Shown here: one piece after another, positions 1-6,284 of the stretch
How positions within the stretch are numbered: the first letter of the stretch is position 1
Layout of the letters: each line of letters begins with the position of its first letter
Source of the DNA: a virus
Length of the DNA: 6,284 nt
Virus record (IMG/VR): IMGVR_UViG_3300014958_000002
Direction: 5' to 3' (one strand)
The notes under the pieces: generated by a model
Databases searched by the model: none
The model's input: only the letters and a program-made list of their open reading frames with translations
Told to the model about the DNA's origin: nothing
Program-made: the position numbers and the translations under genes

Positions 1-78
1 CATATACAGATTGCTGATAACAAGGATTATTTTCAACCAATTCAGGAGTAACCTCGTTTTTAATAAAATCGGGATTTT
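1..78. repeat. Terminal direct repeat, identical to 6207..6284. This is the assembly overlap of a circular genome (unit length 6,206 nt).
   Basis: Base-by-base reading: catatacagattgctgataacaaggattattttcaaccaattcaggagtaacctcgtttttaataaaatcgggatttt occurs at 1..78 and again at 6207..6284, ending exactly at the window edge. Confidence 0.97.
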
Positions 79-109: not shown

Positions 110-1837
110 TTAATAGGGTAAACCATTTCGATCCAAGTTCTGCACAGCATAGACTTGAAAATTAACATTACACAACAACTGATCAAATGCAACAGAACAA
201 TTAGTAGAATCAACCTGAGGCACAAAAATAGAATTCAGCTGTTGAGGACGAACCTTCATAGACTGATAAGACCAAGCACCAGTAGAAGTCAATACCTGCC
301 AACCATCAAGAGGAGCAACCCAAGACTGATAAGCAGCACCAGCACGGAATCCAGCATGGATAGTATCAATATTAGATTTCCACTGCCAATAACGGAGGTT
401 ATAACCGAGAGAACCGGAAACGCTTCGACCTGGATTATTCTGAAGGTTAAGAGCAGGAACAGCCTGCATACCAAGCTGGTCAAATGCAGGTTGCGGGAAA
501 TCAGAAACAGCAGTAACCGTCAACTGGGGAGCCTGTCCTGTCAAATTCCAGTCCAACATAGGTACAGCATGATAAACACACATAATTACTTGATGTTCAG
601 CACCACAATCATAAGTAATAGTATGTCCGGAATTACTAGATACACCCTTACCAGCAATAGAAGCCTGAGAAGAATCAGAATCAAGGTTAGTATTAACTAC
701 CTCATTGATATTAATTACACTAGACCAACCTCCAATATAGTGAGCATGATTACCCATGTACTCGGGAGCCTTAATATTAAACTGGGCGGCCATCTGATCT
801 GTATAGTCCTTACTAGAGAATTGTACTACTTCTTTCCAACGCTGGAGATATTCTGTTGCACGAATTGAGAGAGCAGAAAGGTCAGAATTAACACGAATAT
901 ATTCAACAGAAGTAGAAGAGCCACCTAACACAACAGAATTACCAGTAGCCTGAGACTGAACTACTAATCCTTGACCCGTCTTTAGCAATGAATTAGAGGG
1001 GACATTATCACGGTAAGAAGATGGAAGCAAAGCTACCGAACCATATTGAGAAGACGGCAACATACCCATGAAATAATCCTTCGGATAATTGGCATAACGG
1101 AGCTTAAGCATATTCACAGCCAATGGGATTTTGCCAGTACCAGACCAATAATCAACATTGTAAGCATAAGCTAAATGCTTTTCCCACTGAGAATTACTAT
1201 AAAAATCATAATAGATTTTTTGATATGCAAGAAAAGGCAATGCATTGACAACTTGAGAAGAAGAATAAACCAAGGGGTTATCAGAATCACCAAGATTATC
1301 AACACCTAGATACCTCTGAGTAATAGCAGCCTTAGCGGAATTAGTACTAGCAAGCATAGAACCATAACCAAGTATATCAAGCAACTTACAAGAACCATAA
1401 ACAATAGGGAGGCCTGCATCGTCTCGACTATTAGGCTGGTCTCCAGCATTAGTAAGCTGAAGGAACGTACTAAGGTCACTCTGGGAAACGTAAGGAACAG
1501 AAGTAAGAGCAGGGGTATTCTCAGAAGTGCTAGCCGCACTAGTCATATAATCCGTCATCTGCGTAAATGCCTGCGGAAGAGCACGAGATATCAAACGCAA
1601 CGGCACAGCATAGAAATCATAATACTCTTTAATACGGGTATAAGCAGCCGTATTGACCGGAACAGTACGAGTAAACCAATCCGAAGAAATACGGTACTTG
1701 TTACCGGGAATAGCAATTTGCCAATAGCAAGGAAGAATCTCGCCAACTTTGGCTGTAAACAATTTTTTCGAACTCAAATCGAAAGAAGACCGATGAGTGG
1801 AAATTCTCGCTCGGTCTAAAGGATTAAAATCACTCAT
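110..1837 (-). CDS. VP1: Major capsid protein (Microviridae VP1 / phiX174 F-like), 575 aa
   Basis: This is the longest ORF. The N-terminus has STHRSSFDLSSKKLFTAKVGEILPCYW, matching the conserved microvirus capsid signature (R-S-x-FDLS ... T-x-x-x-G-x-L-x-P). Codons strongly prefer T at the third position. The ATG at 1837 is 18 nt after the VP4 stop, and the size is typical of VP1. Confidence 0.95.
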   Translation of the reverse strand: MSDFNPLDRARISTHRSSFDLSSKKLFTAKVGEILPCYWQIAIPGNKYRISSDWFTRTVPVNTAAYTRIKEYYDFYAVPLRLISRALPQAFTQMTDYMTSAASTSENTPALTSVPYVSQSDLSTFLQLTNAGDQPNSRDDAGLPIVYGSCKLLDILGYGSMLASTNSAKAAITQRYLGVDNLGDSDNPLVYSSSQVVNALPFLAYQKIYYDFYSNSQWEKHLAYAYNVDYWSGTGKIPLAVNMLKLRYANYPKDYFMGMLPSSQYGSVALLPSSYRDNVPSNSLLKTGQGLVVQSQATGNSVVLGGSSTSVEYIRVNSDLSALSIRATEYLQRWKEVVQFSSKDYTDQMAAQFNIKAPEYMGNHAHYIGGWSSVININEVVNTNLDSDSSQASIAGKGVSSNSGHTITYDCGAEHQVIMCVYHAVPMLDWNLTGQAPQLTVTAVSDFPQPAFDQLGMQAVPALNLQNNPGRSVSGSLGYNLRYWQWKSNIDTIHAGFRAGAAYQSWVAPLDGWQVLTSTGAWSYQSMKVRPQQLNSIFVPQVDSTNCSVAFDQLLCNVNFQVYAVQNLDRNGLPY

Positions 1838-3537: not shown

Positions 3538-3846
3538 TTATTTACGTTTATCAATCACTTGACGACGATTACGGTCTCCAAATGAAATATGAACAAATGT
3601 AGGATACAATATCAACTGATCGAATATATGAATATTATCCGAGTAACTATGGATATGCTCAAGCAACCGACTATAAGTAGTAGAGCCATAAGGCTTAATA
3701 TCAATAGCTTCGCCAACAAGATGCTGAGAATTAGGAACTCCACCAGCAGCCTTATTTTCCTCGGGTGTACGCTTAGCACTTGTTACTGTAAAATGAAAGT
3801 TAGCAGATAACAGACTGCCAACAAAATGCATAAGAGTAGTATTCAC
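3538..3846 (-). CDS. Zn-dependent cell-wall peptidase, Peptidase_M15_3 / D-Ala-D-Ala carboxypeptidase-like (candidate endolysin), 102 aa
   Basis: TSAKRTPEENKAAGGVPNSQHLVGEAIDI matches the family signature SGYR-x-x-x-x-N-x-x-x-GG-x-x-x-S-x-H-x-x-G-x-A-x-D. The proposed metal ligands are H42 (3721..3723), D49 (3700..3702) and H86 in FVHISF (3589..3591). The start used is GTG at 3846, which overlaps the TGA of the upstream peptide ORF (GTGA). The first in-frame ATG is at 3831 (M6), so the true start is uncertain. The stop is 2 nt before the VP4 ATG. Confidence 0.85.
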   Translation of the reverse strand: MNTTLMHFVGSLLSANFHFTVTSAKRTPEENKAAGGVPNSQHLVGEAIDIKPYGSTTYSRLLEHIHSYSDNIHIFDQLILYPTFVHISFGDRNRRQVIDKRK

Positions 3847-3926: not shown

Positions 3927-4110
3927 TGTCTTGAGTTTTAAGTTCAACAAAATTGTCCACTTCTTTAATCGAGTCCACAATAACAACAAAACCCAACGAA
4001 GAAACTCGCTCAGAATATTTTCCAAGACCATCGAGAGAATTAACGATATAAGGCGGAATAACATCACGACCAGTATTTTTTTCCTTAACTGAAATAATAA
4101 ATTTCTGCAT
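3913..4110 (-). CDS. Hypothetical protein, 65 aa, slightly acidic; first gene downstream of the candidate promoter
   Basis: It has an ATG start at 4110. 35 of 65 codons end in T, matching the genome's coding signature. The composition is balanced and soluble-looking. I recognise no motif. Confidence 0.6.
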   Translation of the reverse strand: MQKFIISVKEKNTGRDVIPPYIVNSLDGLGKYSERVSSLGFVVIVDSIKEVDNFVELKTQDNETY

Positions 4111-4160
4111 AATTATAACATTTTTAAAAGGTTAATAATAGTTGTAACTTCTAACTGGGA

Positions 4161-4192
4161 CAAAGATATGAGCTTTTTTTTATATTTCCAAA
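4161..4192 (-). promoter_or_regulatory. Candidate Bacteroides-type promoter: -33 TTTG (4192..4189) and -7 TAtcTTTG (4168..4161), 20-nt spacer
   Basis: The minus strand reads TTTG-gaaatataaaaaaaagctca-TATCTTTG, an exact match to the Bacteroides primary sigma consensus TTTG / TAnnTTTG with compatible spacing. It sits ~45-50 nt upstream of the ORF65 ATG (4110), at the head of the whole minus-strand gene string. Scanning the plus strand for CAAAnnTA, this is the only exact TAnnTTTG I found that also has a correctly spaced -33. Confidence 0.4.
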
Positions 4193-4260
4193 TTTTTTTA
4201 GAAATTGTGGGGAAAAGACCATTTTAATGGAGTGTGAGTTGTGCGTTTATGGACAAGGGG

Positions 4261-4293
4261 AAGAGAATTCGAGAGGATAACTCGAATTTGCTT
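4261..4293. other. 13-bp stem-loop (aagagaattcgag / ctcgaatttgctt, 7-nt loop aggataa), nested inside a second helix 4237..4245 / 4294..4304
   Basis: Position i pairs with 4261+4293-i. That gives 11 Watson-Crick pairs, one G-T and one A/G mismatch (4264/4290). In the flanking helix, agttgtg (4237..4243) pairs with cacaact (4298..4304), and cg pairs with cg after a 2-nt bulge. Function is unknown; it could be an ssDNA or RNA structure. Confidence 0.5.
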
Positions 4294-4542
4294 CGCACAC
4301 AACTAGGGGCTTCGCTTAATTAACACACCAACATACGTTCAATACGCATCTCCTAGGAATGGAGTTTAACATTCTACAGGCGGTAAGGTTTAGGTTAAAA
4401 AAATAGGGGAAGACAACAAGTGAGTCAGCTTCCTTTTTTGGGTTCGACTATGCAGAAGGGATGGAAGTGGATGTATACAGGGGTGTATAGGCACGGCAGG
4501 GCAGATAGAACCTACCTTTGCGCACTCCGTGATAAAATACCA

Positions 4543-4584
4543 GAGCGGGGCGCTCCTATAAGGAAGACGCTCCGCTCCATTTTT
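4543..4584. terminator. GC-rich hairpin with flanking A- and T-tracts; candidate bidirectional intrinsic terminator
   Basis: gagcggggcg (4543..4552) pairs with cgctccgctc (4568..4577), giving 9 Watson-Crick pairs plus one G-U. The stem extends inward through tcc/gga around a tataa loop. On the plus strand it is followed by ca-TTTTT (4580..4584). On the minus strand it is followed by UGGUAUUUUAUC, which is weaker. It lies ~170 nt downstream of the VP2 stop, the last gene of the minus-strand string. Confidence 0.55.
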
Positions 4585-4747
4585 CAATCAAGTCCTACGC
4601 GGGCGGCGGGTGTATATCGCTCAAACACCGCGATGAACTTCTAGTCCTAAAGAATACATACGTAATATAATTTTACTACCGAGAGTCAGGATATTTCGCA
4701 AAATCAAATATTCACAACAAAAACATAAGGGAAAAAAATAGTAATAT

Positions 4748-5863
4748 TTATTTACGGCCAACAGAATTGCCAACTCCTTGGAATATACGAGTACCATAAT
4801 CGAGAGCATTACGTAATTCATAAGAGTTAACATCTTTCTGTTTCTGCTTAGAAGACCAATTATAATAGTCACGTAAGGCCTTATCTTTAGAATACTCTAT
4901 GTTCTTAAGAACATTGGTATTCTTAAAATCCCAGAGAGAAGACAATCCACGAGCACGATTAGCTTGAATATTAGCATAAATCAGGGAATCCGCAGTCTGT
5001 TCGGCAATCTTATTACTGATACGAATACCATTAGTTTCAGCAAGAGTTTTCACAGTCTGTGCCATCTGATTTTTATACTGGGCTTCAGAAAGAGCGCCCT
5101 GAGCATACAAATTAGCCAATGTCTGACCTTTGATAAACAAATCAGCTTGTTGTTGTTCATCAAGATACTTATTCAATATCTGCTGAGCTTGAGAATCGAG
5201 TAAAATCTGAGATTCTTGAGCAGAAGTAAGACGACCGGCAAACTCCATATTCTTAAGCTCCTGATATTCCTTAGACTGATCCAATAAAGCAGAACGTCTA
5301 CCAGTGGAAGCATTCCAATAACCAGACAGACCAACACCAATATTACGATAATTCGTATCACCAAGAATCTGTTGCATCTTATACGGAGTAAGGGCGGCAT
5401 TCTGTTCAGCGTTAAGCATAGCAGCACGAGCTTGAGCCATAGAGGCAAGAGCAGAACCGACATCAGAAAAATCAGGACGGAAAGCCTGTAAACTAGGGAC
5501 AGAAGCAGCAGAAGCAGCAGCACCACCAGAGGCGGGAGACTTAGAACCAGCCATAGCGGCAGAACCCTGAACAAATGGATTCAAACCACGGGAAATCATA
5601 GCATTGGGGGAATTATAGGAATTATTCATTCCCCACATCTTTTCTTGCCAATCACGTTGAATCTGGGCTTGCGCAGCATTAAATGCATTATTTTCACGAT
5701 TGATATCAATACTGGTCTGATTGGTCTTATTTTGAGACGACGCACCAATAGCATTGCCAGCAAGAGAAGCACCAGCGGCAATAATACCACCAAGAACAAG
5801 CGGAGCAATGTTCTTTTCGGAGAGCCCCATTAAGGGGCTTTCTCCAATATCATAGAATCTCAT
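4748..5863 (-). CDS. VP2: Minor capsid / DNA pilot protein (Microviridae VP2, phiX174 H-like), 371 aa
   Basis: Its size and position in the capsid module fit VP2. It has an N-terminal hydrophobic Gly/Ala-rich segment (LVLGGIIAAGASLAGNAIGA), a conserved-looking core (QRDWQEKMWGMNNSYNSPNAMISRGLNPF), and a long Q/A/N-rich helical remainder typical of microvirus pilot proteins. The ATG at 5863 overlaps the upstream stop (ATGA). Confidence 0.8.
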   Translation of the reverse strand: MRFYDIGESPLMGLSEKNIAPLVLGGIIAAGASLAGNAIGASSQNKTNQTSIDINRENNAFNAAQAQIQRDWQEKMWGMNNSYNSPNAMISRGLNPFVQGSAAMAGSKSPASGGAAASAASVPSLQAFRPDFSDVGSALASMAQARAAMLNAEQNAALTPYKMQQILGDTNYRNIGVGLSGYWNASTGRRSALLDQSKEYQELKNMEFAGRLTSAQESQILLDSQAQQILNKYLDEQQQADLFIKGQTLANLYAQGALSEAQYKNQMAQTVKTLAETNGIRISNKIAEQTADSLIYANIQANRARGLSSLWDFKNTNVLKNIEYSKDKALRDYYNWSSKQKQKDVNSYELRNALDYGTRIFQGVGNSVGRK

Positions 5864-6284
5864 TGAGCAGAAGCGTCAGGGGCGGACGAAGAATCGGGCT
5901 CTGACTTTTGCTCTGCCAACATAGATTCAGCGTACTTAGTCAATTCTGACTTCTCATTAGCCAATTGCTGTAAAACGGCCTGTCTTTCAGACATTGTCTG
6001 ACAGTGCCGAGAAATTACACAATTAAAACGTTCCTCATCAGTCATACCATCCATAGCAGTAGACTGAGTAGGATGCATCTGAGCAAGGATGTTCTGAACA
6101 TTCATATCACCAAGTAAACGACGATATTTTTCTTGATTCAACAAAATCTGAGTCATATCAACTTGAATCAAATCACCATCGGGAGATTCATCATACATAA
6201 CAGAGTCATATACAGATTGCTGATAACAAGGATTATTTTCAACCAATTCAGGAGTAACCTCGTTTTTAATAAAATCGGGATTTT
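5860..6284 (-). CDS. Acidic 147-aa protein, 5'-truncated by the linearisation point (continues at 97..1); possible internal scaffolding protein (VP3-like)
   Basis: The frame stays open from the TTG at 6246 to the window edge (…NPDFIKNEVTPEL) and is completed by the ATG at 97 after circularisation. The protein is helical and acidic with a C-terminal tail EQKSEPDSSSAPDASAQ. It lies between VP1 and VP2 and is translationally coupled to VP2. The functional call rests only on size, charge and context. Confidence 0.8.
   Translation of the reverse strand, partial: NPDFIKNEVTPELVENNPCYQQSVYDSVMYDESPDGDLIQVDMTQILLNQEKYRRLLGDMNVQNILAQMHPTQSTAMDGMTDEERFNCVISRHCQTMSERQAVLQQLANEKSELTKYAESMLAEQKSEPDSSSAPDASAQ
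6207..6284. repeat. Second copy of the 78-nt terminal redundancy (identical to 1..78)
   Basis: Exact identity to 1..78, read directly. Confidence 0.97.

What the first reader, a model, noticed from the sequence alone, without database searches (positions are those of the whole stretch)
4193..4640. One oversized, G-run-rich, hairpin-dense non-coding block in an otherwise gap-free microvirus genome
Genes elsewhere are separated by 2-18 nt or overlap, yet 637 nt (4111..4747) are non-coding and hold ~95% of all non-coding DNA.

Composition: the core (~4200..4640) stands out. The plus strand has GGGG runs at 4209, 4257, 4306, 4406, 4480 and 4547, plus gggcggcggg at 4601..4610. My hand-counted GC is 97/180 for 4441..4620, against 20/60 (1..60) and 25/60 (1021..1080). 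The Ala/Gly-rich part of VP2 also reaches ~50%, so GC alone is not decisive.

Structure: the block carries several stable helices. These are the nested stem-loop 4237..4304, the 10-bp GC hairpin 4543..4577, ggtgt/acacc at 4609..4613/4625..4629, and an 8-bp AT hairpin at 4689..4713.

Transcription context: the candidate promoter (4161..4192) fires away from the block and the terminator hairpin closes the gene string. About 350 nt (4193..4542) would therefore lie outside the main transcription unit. The terminator T-tract is better on the plus strand, opposite to all genes.

Hypotheses, in my order of preference:
- ssDNA replication signals, such as a complementary-strand origin or primosome-assembly-type hairpins as in phiX174, G4 and M13, and/or the Rep origin.
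- A structured non-coding RNA, possibly antisense-oriented.
- An attP or dif-like site for Xer-mediated lysogeny, as proposed for Bacteroidetes microvirus proviruses.
- Recently captured foreign DNA.
Basis: partly seen in the sequence, partly recalled or inferred. Interest (0 to 1): 0.8.

Follow-up and report, generated by a model that had tools for sequence, protein, structure and literature searches.

The report
Conserved folded-DNA origin-like region in microviruses
The large gap in this gut microvirus genome holds two conserved, hairpin-rich modules that most likely act as replication signals on the packaged DNA strand; one occurs in every tested relative that has the same replication protein, including a phage grown on Bacteroides fragilis.

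Summary
The 637-nt gap (4111-4747) is not coding and matches no Rfam family.

It contains two conserved structured modules separated by a lineage-specific insert.
- **Block A (4218-4317):** a three-way junction plus small hairpins. A covariance model finds it full-length in all six further Alpavirinae-like genomes searched, and it was recognised by eye in the cultured Bacteroides fragilis phage phiHBP1. It always lies after the pilot-protein gene and always in one orientation.
- **Block B (~4464-4652):** a cassette of about 180 nt. It is missing or replaced in some genomes. In one unrelated microvirus lineage it is inverted relative to the genes, yet it keeps its orientation relative to the T-rich strand, which I take to be the packaged one.

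Covariation is strong: 25 of 59 pairs show double changes, and 96% of cells pair against 32-45% in slid controls. There is almost no G.U/A.C asymmetry. On the gene-sense strand the triloops follow the c(GNA)g DNA mini-hairpin rule, a motif known at the G4 and RSF1010 priming sites.

Best reading (about 0.5): these are single-stranded-DNA replication signals, with A as the Rep-linked origin core and B as an exchangeable complementary-strand origin. A structured RNA is not excluded (about 0.2). A dif-type attP, a hidden gene and DNA captured from cellular genomes or tailed phages are not supported.

The parts
4111..4747 (.). Whole non-coding gap between the first small ORF and the VP2 stop codon.
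   Evidence: ORF maps. The ORFs inside the gap have no Pfam or PHROG hit. Relatives carry 1-nt indels inside the longest open stretch.
4161..4199 (-). Bacteroidetes-type promoter for the gene string. The -7 box TATCTTTG is at 4161-4168 and the -33 box TTTG at 4189-4192. An upstream A-tract (T-run on the plus strand) is at 4193-4199.
   Evidence: Sequence. The same arrangement is seen in relatives. The consensus TTTG / TAnnTTTG comes from my own knowledge.
4218..4317 (-). Block A, a conserved three-way junction. The functional strand is inferred to be the minus (gene-sense, T-rich) strand.
   Evidence: Covariance model R1 hit at 104 bits, E 8.5e-22. R1 also finds full-length copies in six Alpavirinae-like genomes that were not used to build it. 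All but one truncated contig among the 80 closest VP1-relative loci (66-98% aa identity) carry it.
4219..4230 (-). P0, a small hairpin (CCATT..AATGG) next to the invariant GTGTGAG at 4232-4238.
   Evidence: The stem changes type between subgroups, for example TCTAC/GTAGA versus CCATT/AATGG. The alignment is weak here.
4237..4304 (-). P1, the closing helix: AGTTGTG at 4237-4243 pairs with CACAACT at 4298-4304. It encloses junction J, P2 and P3.
   Evidence: Compensatory changes are seen within the family. The helix is replaced wholesale in distant lineages.
4244..4264 (-). Unpaired junction J. It holds the near-universal GACAAG at 4252-4257 (CTTGTC on the gene-sense strand), followed by a purine-only stretch of variable sequence (pyrimidine-only on the gene-sense strand).
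4265..4289 (-). P2, a 9-bp stem (4265-4273 with 4281-4289) with the conserved loop AGGATAA at 4274-4280 (TTATCCT on the gene-sense strand).
   Evidence: This is the strongest covariation in the element. Three to four Watson-Crick pair types occur per position across lineages, with no wobble inside the helix.
4290..4296 (-). P3 mini-hairpin: GCTTCGC, which reads GCGAAGC on the gene-sense strand.
   Evidence: The outer pair covaries (GC 69, CG 34, AT 9) and the closing C-G is invariant. Loops on the gene-sense strand are GNA, GNNA or GNAB in 111 of 112 copies.
4309..4315 (-). P4 mini-hairpin: GCTTCGC, which reads GCGAAGC on the gene-sense strand.
   Evidence: Counts are GCGAAGC 107, GCGGAGC 4 and ACGAAGT 1. 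In family 2 the stem covaries (GGCGAAGCC, GACGAAGTC, GGTGAAACC).
4324..4463 (.). Lineage-specific insert of about 140 nt between blocks A and B. It carries a two-way terminator-like hairpin at 4397-4439 (A-run, GGGGAAG...CTTCC, T-run).
   Evidence: Most relatives lack it. It is present in L012, whose core element is 99% identical to the window's, and directly after block A in L265, which has no block B.
4464..4652 (-). Block B, a conserved multi-hairpin cassette.
   Evidence: It is 82% identical across genomes that otherwise share no detectable DNA similarity. The 17-mer scan recovered element-bearing microvirus-size contigs in 110 of 113 IMG/VR loci; the other three were chance hits on larger contigs. 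Covariation is documented.
4491..4521 (-). P5a/P5, a long hairpin. The window copy carries two mismatches.
   Evidence: Pair 143/156 is AT 59 / GC 54 with no intermediates.
4522..4532 (-). P6 hairpin. On the gene-sense strand it reads CAC-GGA-GTG, a c(GNA)g loop.
   Evidence: Pair 168/175 is AT 85 / GC 28. Motif scan.
4533..4556 (-). P7 hairpin (4543-4555) followed on the minus strand by GGTATTTTA. This is the likely terminator of the gene string.
   Evidence: It is the only terminator-like site in 4050-4800. Pair 188/200 is GC 71 / AT 37.
4569..4575 (-). Fourth mini-hairpin: GCTCCGC, which reads GCGGAGC on the gene-sense strand. It sits inside the invariant GTCGCTYCGCTCC.
   Evidence: The only variable base (C or T) is the N of the GNA loop.
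4592..4604 (-). P8 hairpin (GTCC-TACGC-GGGC).
   Evidence: Pair 240/246 is CG 109 / TA 4.
4616..4634 (-). P9 hairpin (ATCGC...GCGAT).
   Evidence: Pair 264/276 is GC 100 / AT 7 / CG 4.
4653..4747 (.). Non-conserved spacer before the VP2 stop. It includes the AT hairpin at 4689-4713.
   Evidence: Conservation ends at about 4652. In some relatives VP2 follows block B within about 5 nt.

Best explanation
The gap is the phage's cis-acting replication region, built from two modules that fold as single-stranded DNA on the packaged strand. That strand is the gene-sense, T-rich strand, which is the window's minus strand.

**Block A.** This is a three-way junction flanked by c(GNA)g mini-hairpins. It has an unpaired CTTGTC-containing junction and a stem capped by an invariant TWATC loop. 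I take it to be the lineage-wide core signal tied to the long Alpavirinae-type Rep protein. Most likely it is the site where Rep nicks and re-joins the viral strand, and it may also contribute to priming.

**Block B.** This is an exchangeable, dispensable accessory cassette. It is analogous to the single-strand origins (sso/ssi) of rolling-circle plasmids and to the complementary-strand origin of phage G4. Its stable hairpins would stay free of single-strand binding protein, letting a host primase or RNA polymerase start the complementary strand. One of its hairpins (P7) also serves as the terminator of the gene string.

**Shown:** conservation, structure, modularity, orientation rules and loop motifs.

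**Inferred:** that the fold forms in DNA, which strand is packaged, and the priming and nicking roles.
For: 1. **Real conserved structure.** On 93 copies, 59 curated pairs are 96.1% paired against 32-45% for slid controls. Twenty-five pairs show changes on both sides (315 cells), and 0 of 500 shuffles reach this. An unbiased mutual-information scan returns clean Watson-Crick covariations.

2. **Deep conservation of block A.** Model R1 finds full-length copies in six genomes it was not trained on: Dulem 232, Dulem 245, MG945563, chicken mg4_76, mar64 and Dulem 263 (E from 1e-5 to 0.1). It was recognised by eye in phiHBP1, which is in the training set and scores 63.8 bits. Every copy lies in the gap after VP2. 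Rep identity to the window is only 27-29% for the two relatives compared, Dulem 245 and phiHBP1.

3. **Fixed orientation.** Block A is on the strand opposite VP1 in 41 of 41 VP1-oriented loci and in all distant lineages.

4. **Link to Rep type.** Block A is absent from the mar45-like group, whose Rep is short (397 aa) and only marginally similar.

5. **Loop rule on the gene-sense strand.** P3 and P4 loops are GNA, GNNA or GNAB closed by C-G in 223 of 224 family-1 copies. Three of the four possible N were tallied in family 2 (GAA 33, GGA 7, GTA 6). Only GNA triloops form the extra-stable DNA mini-hairpin. GCGAAAGC sits at the primase site of the G4 origin, CCGAAGG is in RSF1010 ssiA, and mini-hairpins bind SSB poorly (PMC13037366).

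6. **Strand-specific enrichment.** In the big gaps of 14 genomes there are 39 such 7-mers on the T-rich strand and 8 on the other, against 5.8 expected per strand.

7. **No wobble asymmetry.** Covarying pairs switch between Watson-Crick types with few intermediates, and G.T does not outnumber A.C. In the divergent block A set the counts are 224 WC, 9 G.T and 8 A.C.

8. **Block B behaves like a cassette.** It is missing in L253, L260, L265 and L270, and partly deleted in L248. It occurs alone in mar45, L443 and L448.

9. **Block B follows the T-rich strand, not the genes.** In that group it is inverted relative to the genes, but those genomes have mirror-image composition: third codon positions are A 0.47 and T 0.15, against T 0.50 and A 0.16 elsewhere. 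Block B therefore keeps one orientation relative to the T-rich strand. C-to-T bias marks the single-stranded form of ssDNA phages (PMC4032129).

10. **Block A is shielded from the main transcript.** Gene-sense terminators lie between VP2 and block A in L253 and L270, at the family-2 site seen in L318 and L319, and within block B in the window.
Against: - There is no experimental evidence for priming, nicking or even which strand is packaged. The strand assignment rests on composition and on what is established for cultured Microviridae.
- The block B orientation argument rests on one independent inversion event. By chance it would agree with the T-rich strand half the time.
- The 14 genomes in the motif count are related, so the P values overstate the support.
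- On the plus strand the family-1 alignment folds about 14 kcal/mol better. Some plus-only helices with invariant G.U can be drawn, and one internal G.T in P5 favours the plus strand.
- Long invariant unpaired stretches and a 290-nt multi-helix architecture are also what a structured RNA would show.
- No sequence similarity to the phiX174, G4 or f1 origins was demonstrated. The CTTG resemblance to the phiX174/pC194 nick site is recalled from memory and is only 4 nt.
- In the mar45-like group the mini-hairpin excess on the T-rich strand is not evident on its own (2 vs 2, 1 vs 1, 1 vs 0).
Confidence: 0.5

Rival explanations
1. Blocks A and/or B are genes for a structured non-coding RNA. The RNA would be transcribed either antisense to the genes (plus strand) or as the tail of the long mRNA, and would act on the host or on phage gene expression.
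For: - The architecture is complex and conserved, with invariant unpaired segments.
- The plus strand is G-rich and purine-rich, as many structured RNAs are.
- The family-1 consensus fold is better on the plus strand, -155.5 against -141.8 kcal/mol.
- Several G.U-compatible variations occur on the plus strand.
- Block B moves as a self-contained unit between lineages.
Against: - No Rfam family matches at E up to 1 in the window, and at E up to 10 the relatives give only two chance-level snoRNA-model matches outside the element.
- I saw no canonical Bacteroidetes promoter upstream on the plus strand, by eye only.
- Block A lies downstream of gene-sense terminators.
- Covarying pairs show no G.U over A.C excess on either strand.
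- Loop variation follows a DNA mini-hairpin rule on the gene-sense strand.
- Block B flips relative to transcription but not relative to the T-rich strand.
Confidence: 0.22
2. The region is mainly a transcription-end device: a cluster of hairpins that terminates, insulates and stabilises the single long mRNA on a circular genome.
For: - P7 with its T-tract is a terminator-like site on the gene strand.
- The region always sits between the last gene and the promoter.
- The window's insert has a two-way terminator-like hairpin.
Against: - Block A lies beyond the terminators, yet it is the most conserved part.
- Invariant unpaired motifs and a three-way junction are not needed for termination.
- Genomes with a plain terminator (L253, L270) still keep block A.
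- Block B is inverted relative to transcription in the mar45-like group.
Confidence: 0.1
3. The modules are selfish or neutral mobile DNA that spreads among microviruses by recombination, without a role for the phage.
For: - The pattern is modular, with presence/absence variation, inserts of about +36, +80 and +140 nt at one site, and an inversion.
- Nucleotide identity is higher than in the flanking genes.
Against: - Block A is present in every member of a deep lineage, at one place and in one orientation, with compensatory changes accumulated over Rep divergence down to 27%.
- There are no terminal inverted repeats.
- No copies were seen in the cellular genomes or other phages sampled.
Confidence: 0.05
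4. The block is a dif-like attP site used for XerC/D-mediated lysogeny, as proposed for Bacteroidetes microvirus proviruses.
For: Proviruses of this subfamily have dif-like att sites, inferred to lie upstream of the Rep gene (PMC3091885). Folded ssDNA att sites are known for CTX phage, as cited in that paper.
Against: - The best match to the 28-nt dif consensus anywhere in the genome is 21/28, equal to the mean of shuffles (21.3), and none of the best-scoring sites lies in the block.
- None of the 120 genome-contig loci returned by the 17-mer scan contains the element.
Confidence: 0.03
5. The gap hides a protein-coding gene that uses an unusual start codon or genetic code.
For: Stop-free runs of about 60 codons exist on both strands. 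GenBank records annotate hypothetical proteins over the element in Dulem virus 242 and phiHBP1.
Against: - No frame stays open across the element in any genetic code tried.
- Common 1-nt indels occur inside the longest open stretch.
- Variation falls on paired columns, not on codon positions.
- There is no Pfam or PHROG hit.
Confidence: 0.01

Closest known systems
Complementary-strand origin of phage G4 (also St-1 and alpha3), primed by host DnaG primase
   Same: - It lies in the main non-coding region of a microvirus.
- It is a cluster of stable hairpins on the packaged strand.
- A GNA/GNNA mini-hairpin closed by C-G (GCGAAAGC in G4) sits at the priming site and is thought to resist SSB (PMC13037366).
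   Different: - No sequence similarity was shown.
- The element here is larger (about 100 + 180 nt against about 140 nt) and modular, and it includes a three-way junction.
- The host is Bacteroidales, whose primase specificity is unknown.
- Priming has not been tested.
Single-strand origins (ssoA, ssoU and others) and ssi signals of rolling-circle and broad-host-range plasmids, such as RSF1010 ssiA
   Same: - Block B is a structured cassette of 150-300 nt.
- Block B is dispensable or replaceable, is exchanged between unrelated replicons, and is locked in orientation to the displaced single strand.
- RSF1010 ssiA contains CCGAAGG, which is also a common P3 variant in block A here.
   Different: - The sso signature motifs (RSB, CS-6) were not looked for systematically and none was evident.
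- The orientation rule rests on one inversion plus a compositional inference.
- Nothing is known about which host enzyme would recognise it.
Viral-strand (double-strand) origins of HUH-Rep replicons: phiX174/pC194 CTTG^ATA, the f1 gene II origin hairpin, and the geminivirus/circovirus stem with an invariant loop
   Same: - Block A co-occurs with one Rep type.
- It has a covarying stem capped by an invariant loop (P2).
- It has an unpaired junction holding a near-universal CTTGTC on the gene-sense strand.
   Different: - The resemblance to known nick sites is 4 nt and is recalled from memory.
- In phiX174 the origin lies inside gene A and is not hairpin-based.
- The nick site here is unknown.
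Conserved intergenic hairpins reported in reekeekee- and roodoodoo-microviruses
   Same: These are hairpins in microvirus intergenic regions with compensatory substitutions. Their authors proposed them as possible negative-strand initiation sites, also without experimental proof (PMC9865509).
   Different: Those are one or two simple hairpins of 13-64 nt in tiny genomes. The element here is a multi-domain structure shared across a whole subfamily, with a mobile second module.

Membership tests
Primase-dependent (G4-type) or ssi-type complementary-strand origin | Lies on the packaged single strand, in non-coding DNA. | tested here: inconclusive
   The element lies in the only large gap. The mini-hairpin strand is the gene-sense, T-rich strand. 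Packaging of that strand is inferred, not measured.
Primase-dependent (G4-type) or ssi-type complementary-strand origin | Stable hairpins, including a C-G-closed GNA/GNNA mini-hairpin. | tested here: met
   There are four c(GNA)g sites on the gene-sense strand in the window's block, against five in the other roughly 5800 nt. They are conserved and covary in relatives. The motif definition comes from PMC13037366.
Primase-dependent (G4-type) or ssi-type complementary-strand origin | Works in only one orientation relative to the single strand. | tested here: met
   This was tested by comparison only. Block A has the same orientation in 41 of 41 oriented loci and in all distant lineages. Block B keeps its orientation relative to the T-rich strand even where it is inverted relative to the genes.
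Primase-dependent (G4-type) or ssi-type complementary-strand origin | A primer is made at a defined site by host primase, PriA primosome or RNA polymerase. | not testable with these tools
   This needs biochemistry.
HUH-Rep viral-strand origin (nick site) | Co-inherited with a particular Rep family. | tested here: met
   Block A is present in every long-Rep Alpavirinae-like genome searched; the two Reps compared are 27-29% identical to the window's. It is absent from the group with a short, barely related Rep. Shared descent alone could explain this too.
HUH-Rep viral-strand origin (nick site) | An invariant short motif in an unpaired loop or junction on the viral strand. | tested here: inconclusive
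   Candidates exist: CTTGTC in the junction and TWATC in the P2 loop. Which one is cut, if either, is unknown.
HUH-Rep viral-strand origin (nick site) | Rep cleaves and re-joins at the site. | not testable with these tools
   This needs purified Rep.
Known RNA families (Rfam 15) | A covariance-model match. | tested here: not met
   No match at E up to 1 in the window. In seven relatives at E up to 10 there are only two chance-level snoRNA-model matches, far from the element.
dif-like attP for XerC/D | A 28-nt site matching the bacterial dif consensus. | tested here: not met
   The best score is 21/28, equal to the shuffle mean, and none of the best-scoring sites lies in the block.
Protein-coding gene | A conserved open frame, codon-periodic variation, or a family match. 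| tested here: not met

The most novel reading that the evidence does not exclude
Blocks A and/or B are transcribed and form the first structured non-coding RNA family known from Microviridae. Block A (~100 nt) would be conserved across the most abundant human-gut microvirus group, and block B (~180 nt) would be an RNA module traded between unrelated microviruses. The RNA would act on host or phage processes rather than as a DNA signal.
Probability: 0.2. Interest if true: 0.85.

Novelty: new variant of a known kind. Interest (0 to 1): 0.65.

Why it matters
**A testable replication element.** Replication signals are known only for the phiX174/G4 group of microviruses. For the Bacteroidales-infecting Alpavirinae-like phages, among the most abundant microvirus groups in viromes (PMC9865509), none has been defined as far as I could find. 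Block A is a concrete, testable candidate. It is present in phiHBP1, which its authors describe as the first cultured Bacteroidota-infecting microvirus (PMC13064476).

**A mobile second module.** If block B is a swappable complementary-strand origin, microviruses trade host-adaptation cassettes the way rolling-circle plasmids do.

**Practical uses.** The covariance model gives an annotation tool. It also flags several 'hypothetical proteins' in GenBank as probable mis-calls.

**A side observation.** The mirror-image composition of mar45-like genomes hints at microviruses whose genes lie on the non-packaged strand.

Tried and rejected
- **Rfam and tRNA scans.** Rfam scans of the window and of relatives, and ARAGORN on the window: nothing relevant.
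- **Hidden gene.** Rejected on stop codons in all frames and three alternative codes, 1-nt indels, and no Pfam or PHROG hits.
- **dif/attP.** Rejected.
- **Strand from energies.** Both strands fold with z about -3. Consensus energies conflict between families: plus is better in family 1, and the two are equal in family 2 and in block B2.
- **Strand from wobble pairs.** The counts are symmetric. I now read this as a point for DNA rather than a failure.
- **Plus-strand-only helices.** The long-range ACUAGGGG/CUUCUAGU helix and CGCUCCGCU/RGCGGGUG came from RNAalifold. I dropped them. They overlap P1 and P4, they rest on invariant G.U, and the one variable base in the second is better explained as the N of a GNA loop.
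- **Block B as an ssDNA signal.** I nearly rejected this when block B turned up inverted relative to the genes in mar45, L443 and L448. It was reinstated after the composition analysis.
- **Genome-contig scan.** The family-1 17-mer scan returned 120 loci, and nhmmer found the element in none of them.
- **nhmmer across families.** A family-1 profile did not detect family 2. The homology was seen by eye and then confirmed with the covariance model.
- **Not attempted.** The metagenome scan, protein-homology searches and structure prediction were not used.
Full report
**1. What the window is**

The window is a circular microvirus genome with a 78-nt terminal redundancy, so the unit is 6206 nt. All genes are on the minus strand:
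- capsid VP1 (Phage_F)
- a 559-aa Rep (REP_ORF2-G2P)
- an M15 peptidase
- small ORFs, a scaffold-like ORF, and pilot protein VP2

The closest cultured relative is Bacteroides fragilis phage phiHBP1, with VP1 33% and Rep 29% identical. A Bacteroidetes-type promoter sits on the minus strand at 4161-4192. The consensus it matches is from my own knowledge.

**2. Checking the observation**

- The 637-nt gap, the G-run positions and the hand-counted GC values are all exact.
- The block is richer in G+C (0.458 against 0.391) and its GC skew is reversed.
- It folds better than shuffles on both strands.
- It is not coding. No frame stays open across it in relatives under any of four codes, 1-nt indels are common, and no protein family matches.
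- No tRNA was found, and no Rfam family matches even at E up to 1.

**3. Relatives**

A distant blastn search found 34 GenBank microviruses, from dog, human and lemur samples. They match the block at about 82% identity in two pieces. For several of them megablast found little or nothing else in the genome.

A 17-mer from the block then retrieved 113 IMG/VR loci. Of these, 110 are microvirus-size contigs that carry the element, and the other three are chance hits. All but one truncated contig among the 80 closest VP1-relative loci (66-98% aa identity) have it.

**4. Anatomy: three parts, not one block**

- **Block A (4218-4317).** It consists of hairpin P0, then a closing helix P1 around an unpaired junction, a 9-bp stem P2 with a conserved 7-nt loop, and a tiny hairpin P3. 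A second tiny hairpin, P4, follows.
- **An insert of about 140 nt (4324-4463).** Most relatives lack it. It carries a two-way terminator-like hairpin. In L265 it occurs directly after block A, and L265 has no block B.
- **Block B (~4464-4652).** It holds helices P5 to P9 and a fourth mini-hairpin.

Conservation stops at about 4652. The rest of the gap, up to VP2, is a variable spacer.

**5. Evidence for structure**

An unbiased mutual-information scan puts clean Watson-Crick covariations at the top. Examples are GC 69 / CG 34 / AT 9, AT 59 / GC 54, and CG 77 / TA 34.

With a curated 59-pair structure on 93 copies:
- 96.1% of cells pair, against 32-45% when partners are slid by 1-3 columns.
- 25 pairs have changes on both sides (315 cells).
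- No shuffle out of 500 reaches the observed values.

On the minus strand this hairpin plus GGTATTTTA is the only terminator-like site in the region.

**6. Depth and modularity**

A sister family (Dulem virus 257, bajarodmic 1134 and about 50 IMG/VR contigs; VP1 about 37% identical) has a homologous element that nhmmer missed. It was obvious by eye.

I built covariance model R1 from families 1 and 2, phiHBP1 and mar62. It found full-length block A in all six further Alpavirinae-like genomes searched: Dulem 232, Dulem 245, MG945563, chicken mg4_76, mar64 and Dulem 263, with E from 1e-5 to 0.1. In every case:
- the copy lies in the gap after VP2
- it has the same orientation
- P1 and P2 are rebuilt from different sequences
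- TGTSAS-TT, GACAAG, the GATWA loop and the C-TNC-G hairpin are kept

Block A thus survives Rep divergence to 27-29% identity.

Block B behaves differently:
- It is absent in L253, L260, L265 and L270, and partly deleted in L248.
- In other lineages GC-rich hairpin DNA of a different sequence follows block A.
- In mar45, L443 and L448 it occurs alone, after a short and barely related Rep, and inverted relative to the genes. It still shows compensatory changes there.

**7. Which strand, and DNA or RNA?**

Folding energies do not decide this. Three observations point to DNA folding on the gene-sense strand.

*(a) Loop sequences.* Read on the gene-sense strand, the loops of P3 and P4 are GAA, GGA or GTA, closed by an invariant C-G. 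The four-base variants are GAAA, GAAC, GAAT and GGAT. This holds in 223 of 224 family-1 hairpins, and family 2 shows GAA, GGA and GTA. That is the rule for the extra-stable DNA mini-hairpin. Such hairpins sit at the primase site of the G4 complementary-strand origin, in RSF1010 ssiA (CCGAAGG) and in N4 hairpin promoters, and they bind SSB poorly (PMC13037366).

The window's block has four such sites on that strand and none on the other. The rest of the genome has five and six. Over the large gaps of 14 genomes the count is 39 against 8, with 5.8 expected per strand. These genomes are not independent.

*(b) No wobble bias.* Covarying pairs jump between Watson-Crick types with few intermediates, and G.T does not outnumber A.C. 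In the divergent block A alignment the counts are 224 WC, 9 G.T and 8 A.C. A functional RNA strand would normally show G.U well above A.C.

*(c) Orientation follows composition, not transcription.* All genomes with block A have a T-rich coding strand, with third codon positions at T 0.50 and A 0.16. This is the usual mark of C-to-T decay on the single-stranded form (PMC4032129). The mar45-like genomes are the mirror image, at A 0.47 and T 0.15. Block B, inverted relative to their genes, therefore sits in the same orientation relative to the T-rich strand in all three groups.

In addition, gene-sense terminators separate VP2 from block A in L253 and L270, in family 2, and in the window. Block A is therefore largely outside the main transcript.

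**8. Interpretation**

The pattern parallels rolling-circle plasmids. There, the Rep-specific origin travels with its rep gene, while the single-strand origin is a structured, orientation-dependent, dispensable and exchangeable cassette. That description of plasmids is established knowledge, not something tested here.

I therefore read block A as the Rep-linked core origin, with candidate nick or recognition motifs CTTGTC and TWATC on the gene-sense strand. I read block B as a complementary-strand origin cassette, one hairpin of which doubles as the mRNA terminator.

The roles are inferred and confidence is about 0.5. A structured RNA remains the main rival (about 0.2), because the architecture and the invariant unpaired stretches would fit it and no transcript data exist.

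**9. Other hypotheses**

- **dif-type attP.** The best dif-consensus score equals the shuffle mean and none of the best-scoring sites lies in the block. Proviruses of this subfamily do use dif-like sites (PMC3091885).
- **DNA captured from outside microviruses.** None of the element-bearing loci recovered is a non-microvirus contig.
- **A pure terminator cluster.** It does not explain block A.

**10. Literature**

Searches found conserved intergenic hairpins with compensatory changes in two tiny microvirus clades. Their authors tentatively linked these to negative-strand initiation (PMC9865509). I found nothing on this element. The phiHBP1 paper does not discuss non-coding regions of the phage genome (PMC13064476).

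I class the finding as a new variant of a known kind (ssDNA-phage origin structures) and score interest at 0.65.

Noticed in passing
L461 (Microvirus mar45, MZ089791), L443, L448: whole genomes: These microviruses have a strongly A-rich coding strand (A 42-43%, T 18%). Their third codon positions (A 0.47, C 0.23, G 0.15, T 0.15) are the exact mirror of the other genomes (T 0.50, G 0.19, A 0.16, C 0.15). This suggests their genes lie on the strand complementary to the packaged one, which would make them negative-sense microviruses.
   Followed up: partly
L317 (phiHBP1, PV598014) 2314-2419, inside annotated CDS 2326-2736: Block A (R1 score 63.8 bits) and further GCTTCGC hairpins lie inside an annotated 'hypothetical protein'. 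That CDS is probably a mis-call over non-coding DNA, or at least overlaps the element.
   Followed up: partly
L003 (Dulem virus 242) 1487-1813; L318 (Dulem virus 257) 3581-3784; L440 (mar45) Rep 3' end: GenBank annotates 'hypothetical protein' CDSs, or the Rep C-terminus, across blocks A or B. Given the indels and covariation, these are likely spurious or over-extended.
   Followed up: no
window 4397-4439: This is an A-run, a GGGGAAG...CTTCC hairpin and a T-run, which makes a two-way terminator-like structure. It sits in the 140-nt insert between blocks A and B. The insert is shared with L012 and L265.
   Followed up: partly
window 4258-4264 and the same position in relatives: A stretch of about 8-10 nt in the block A junction is almost entirely purine (pyrimidine on the gene-sense strand), but its A/G order varies freely between genomes. 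Composition seems to be selected, not sequence.
   Followed up: no
L026 (7121 nt), L123 (7277 nt): These contigs are longer than one genome and carry two diverged copies of the element. They look like chimeric or concatenated assemblies of two related microviruses.
   Followed up: no
L318/L319 (family 2), between block A and the promoter: An AT-rich spacer of about 110 nt contains a 9-bp inverted repeat, GTTGTAATT...AATTACAAC. Family 1 has nothing equivalent. It might be an unwinding or binding element.
   Followed up: no
L448, gene-sense strand about 1335-1887: Six mini-hairpin-type motifs (GCGCAGC, CCGGTAGG, GCGAAAGC, CCGAAGG, GCGCAAGC, GCGGAAGC) cluster in about 550 nt, far from block B. 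In this group the gene-sense strand is the A-rich one. I did not check whether the stretch is coding.
   Followed up: no
window 1-78 and 6207-6284: The contig has a 78-nt terminal redundancy, so the genome is 6206 nt.
   Followed up: partly
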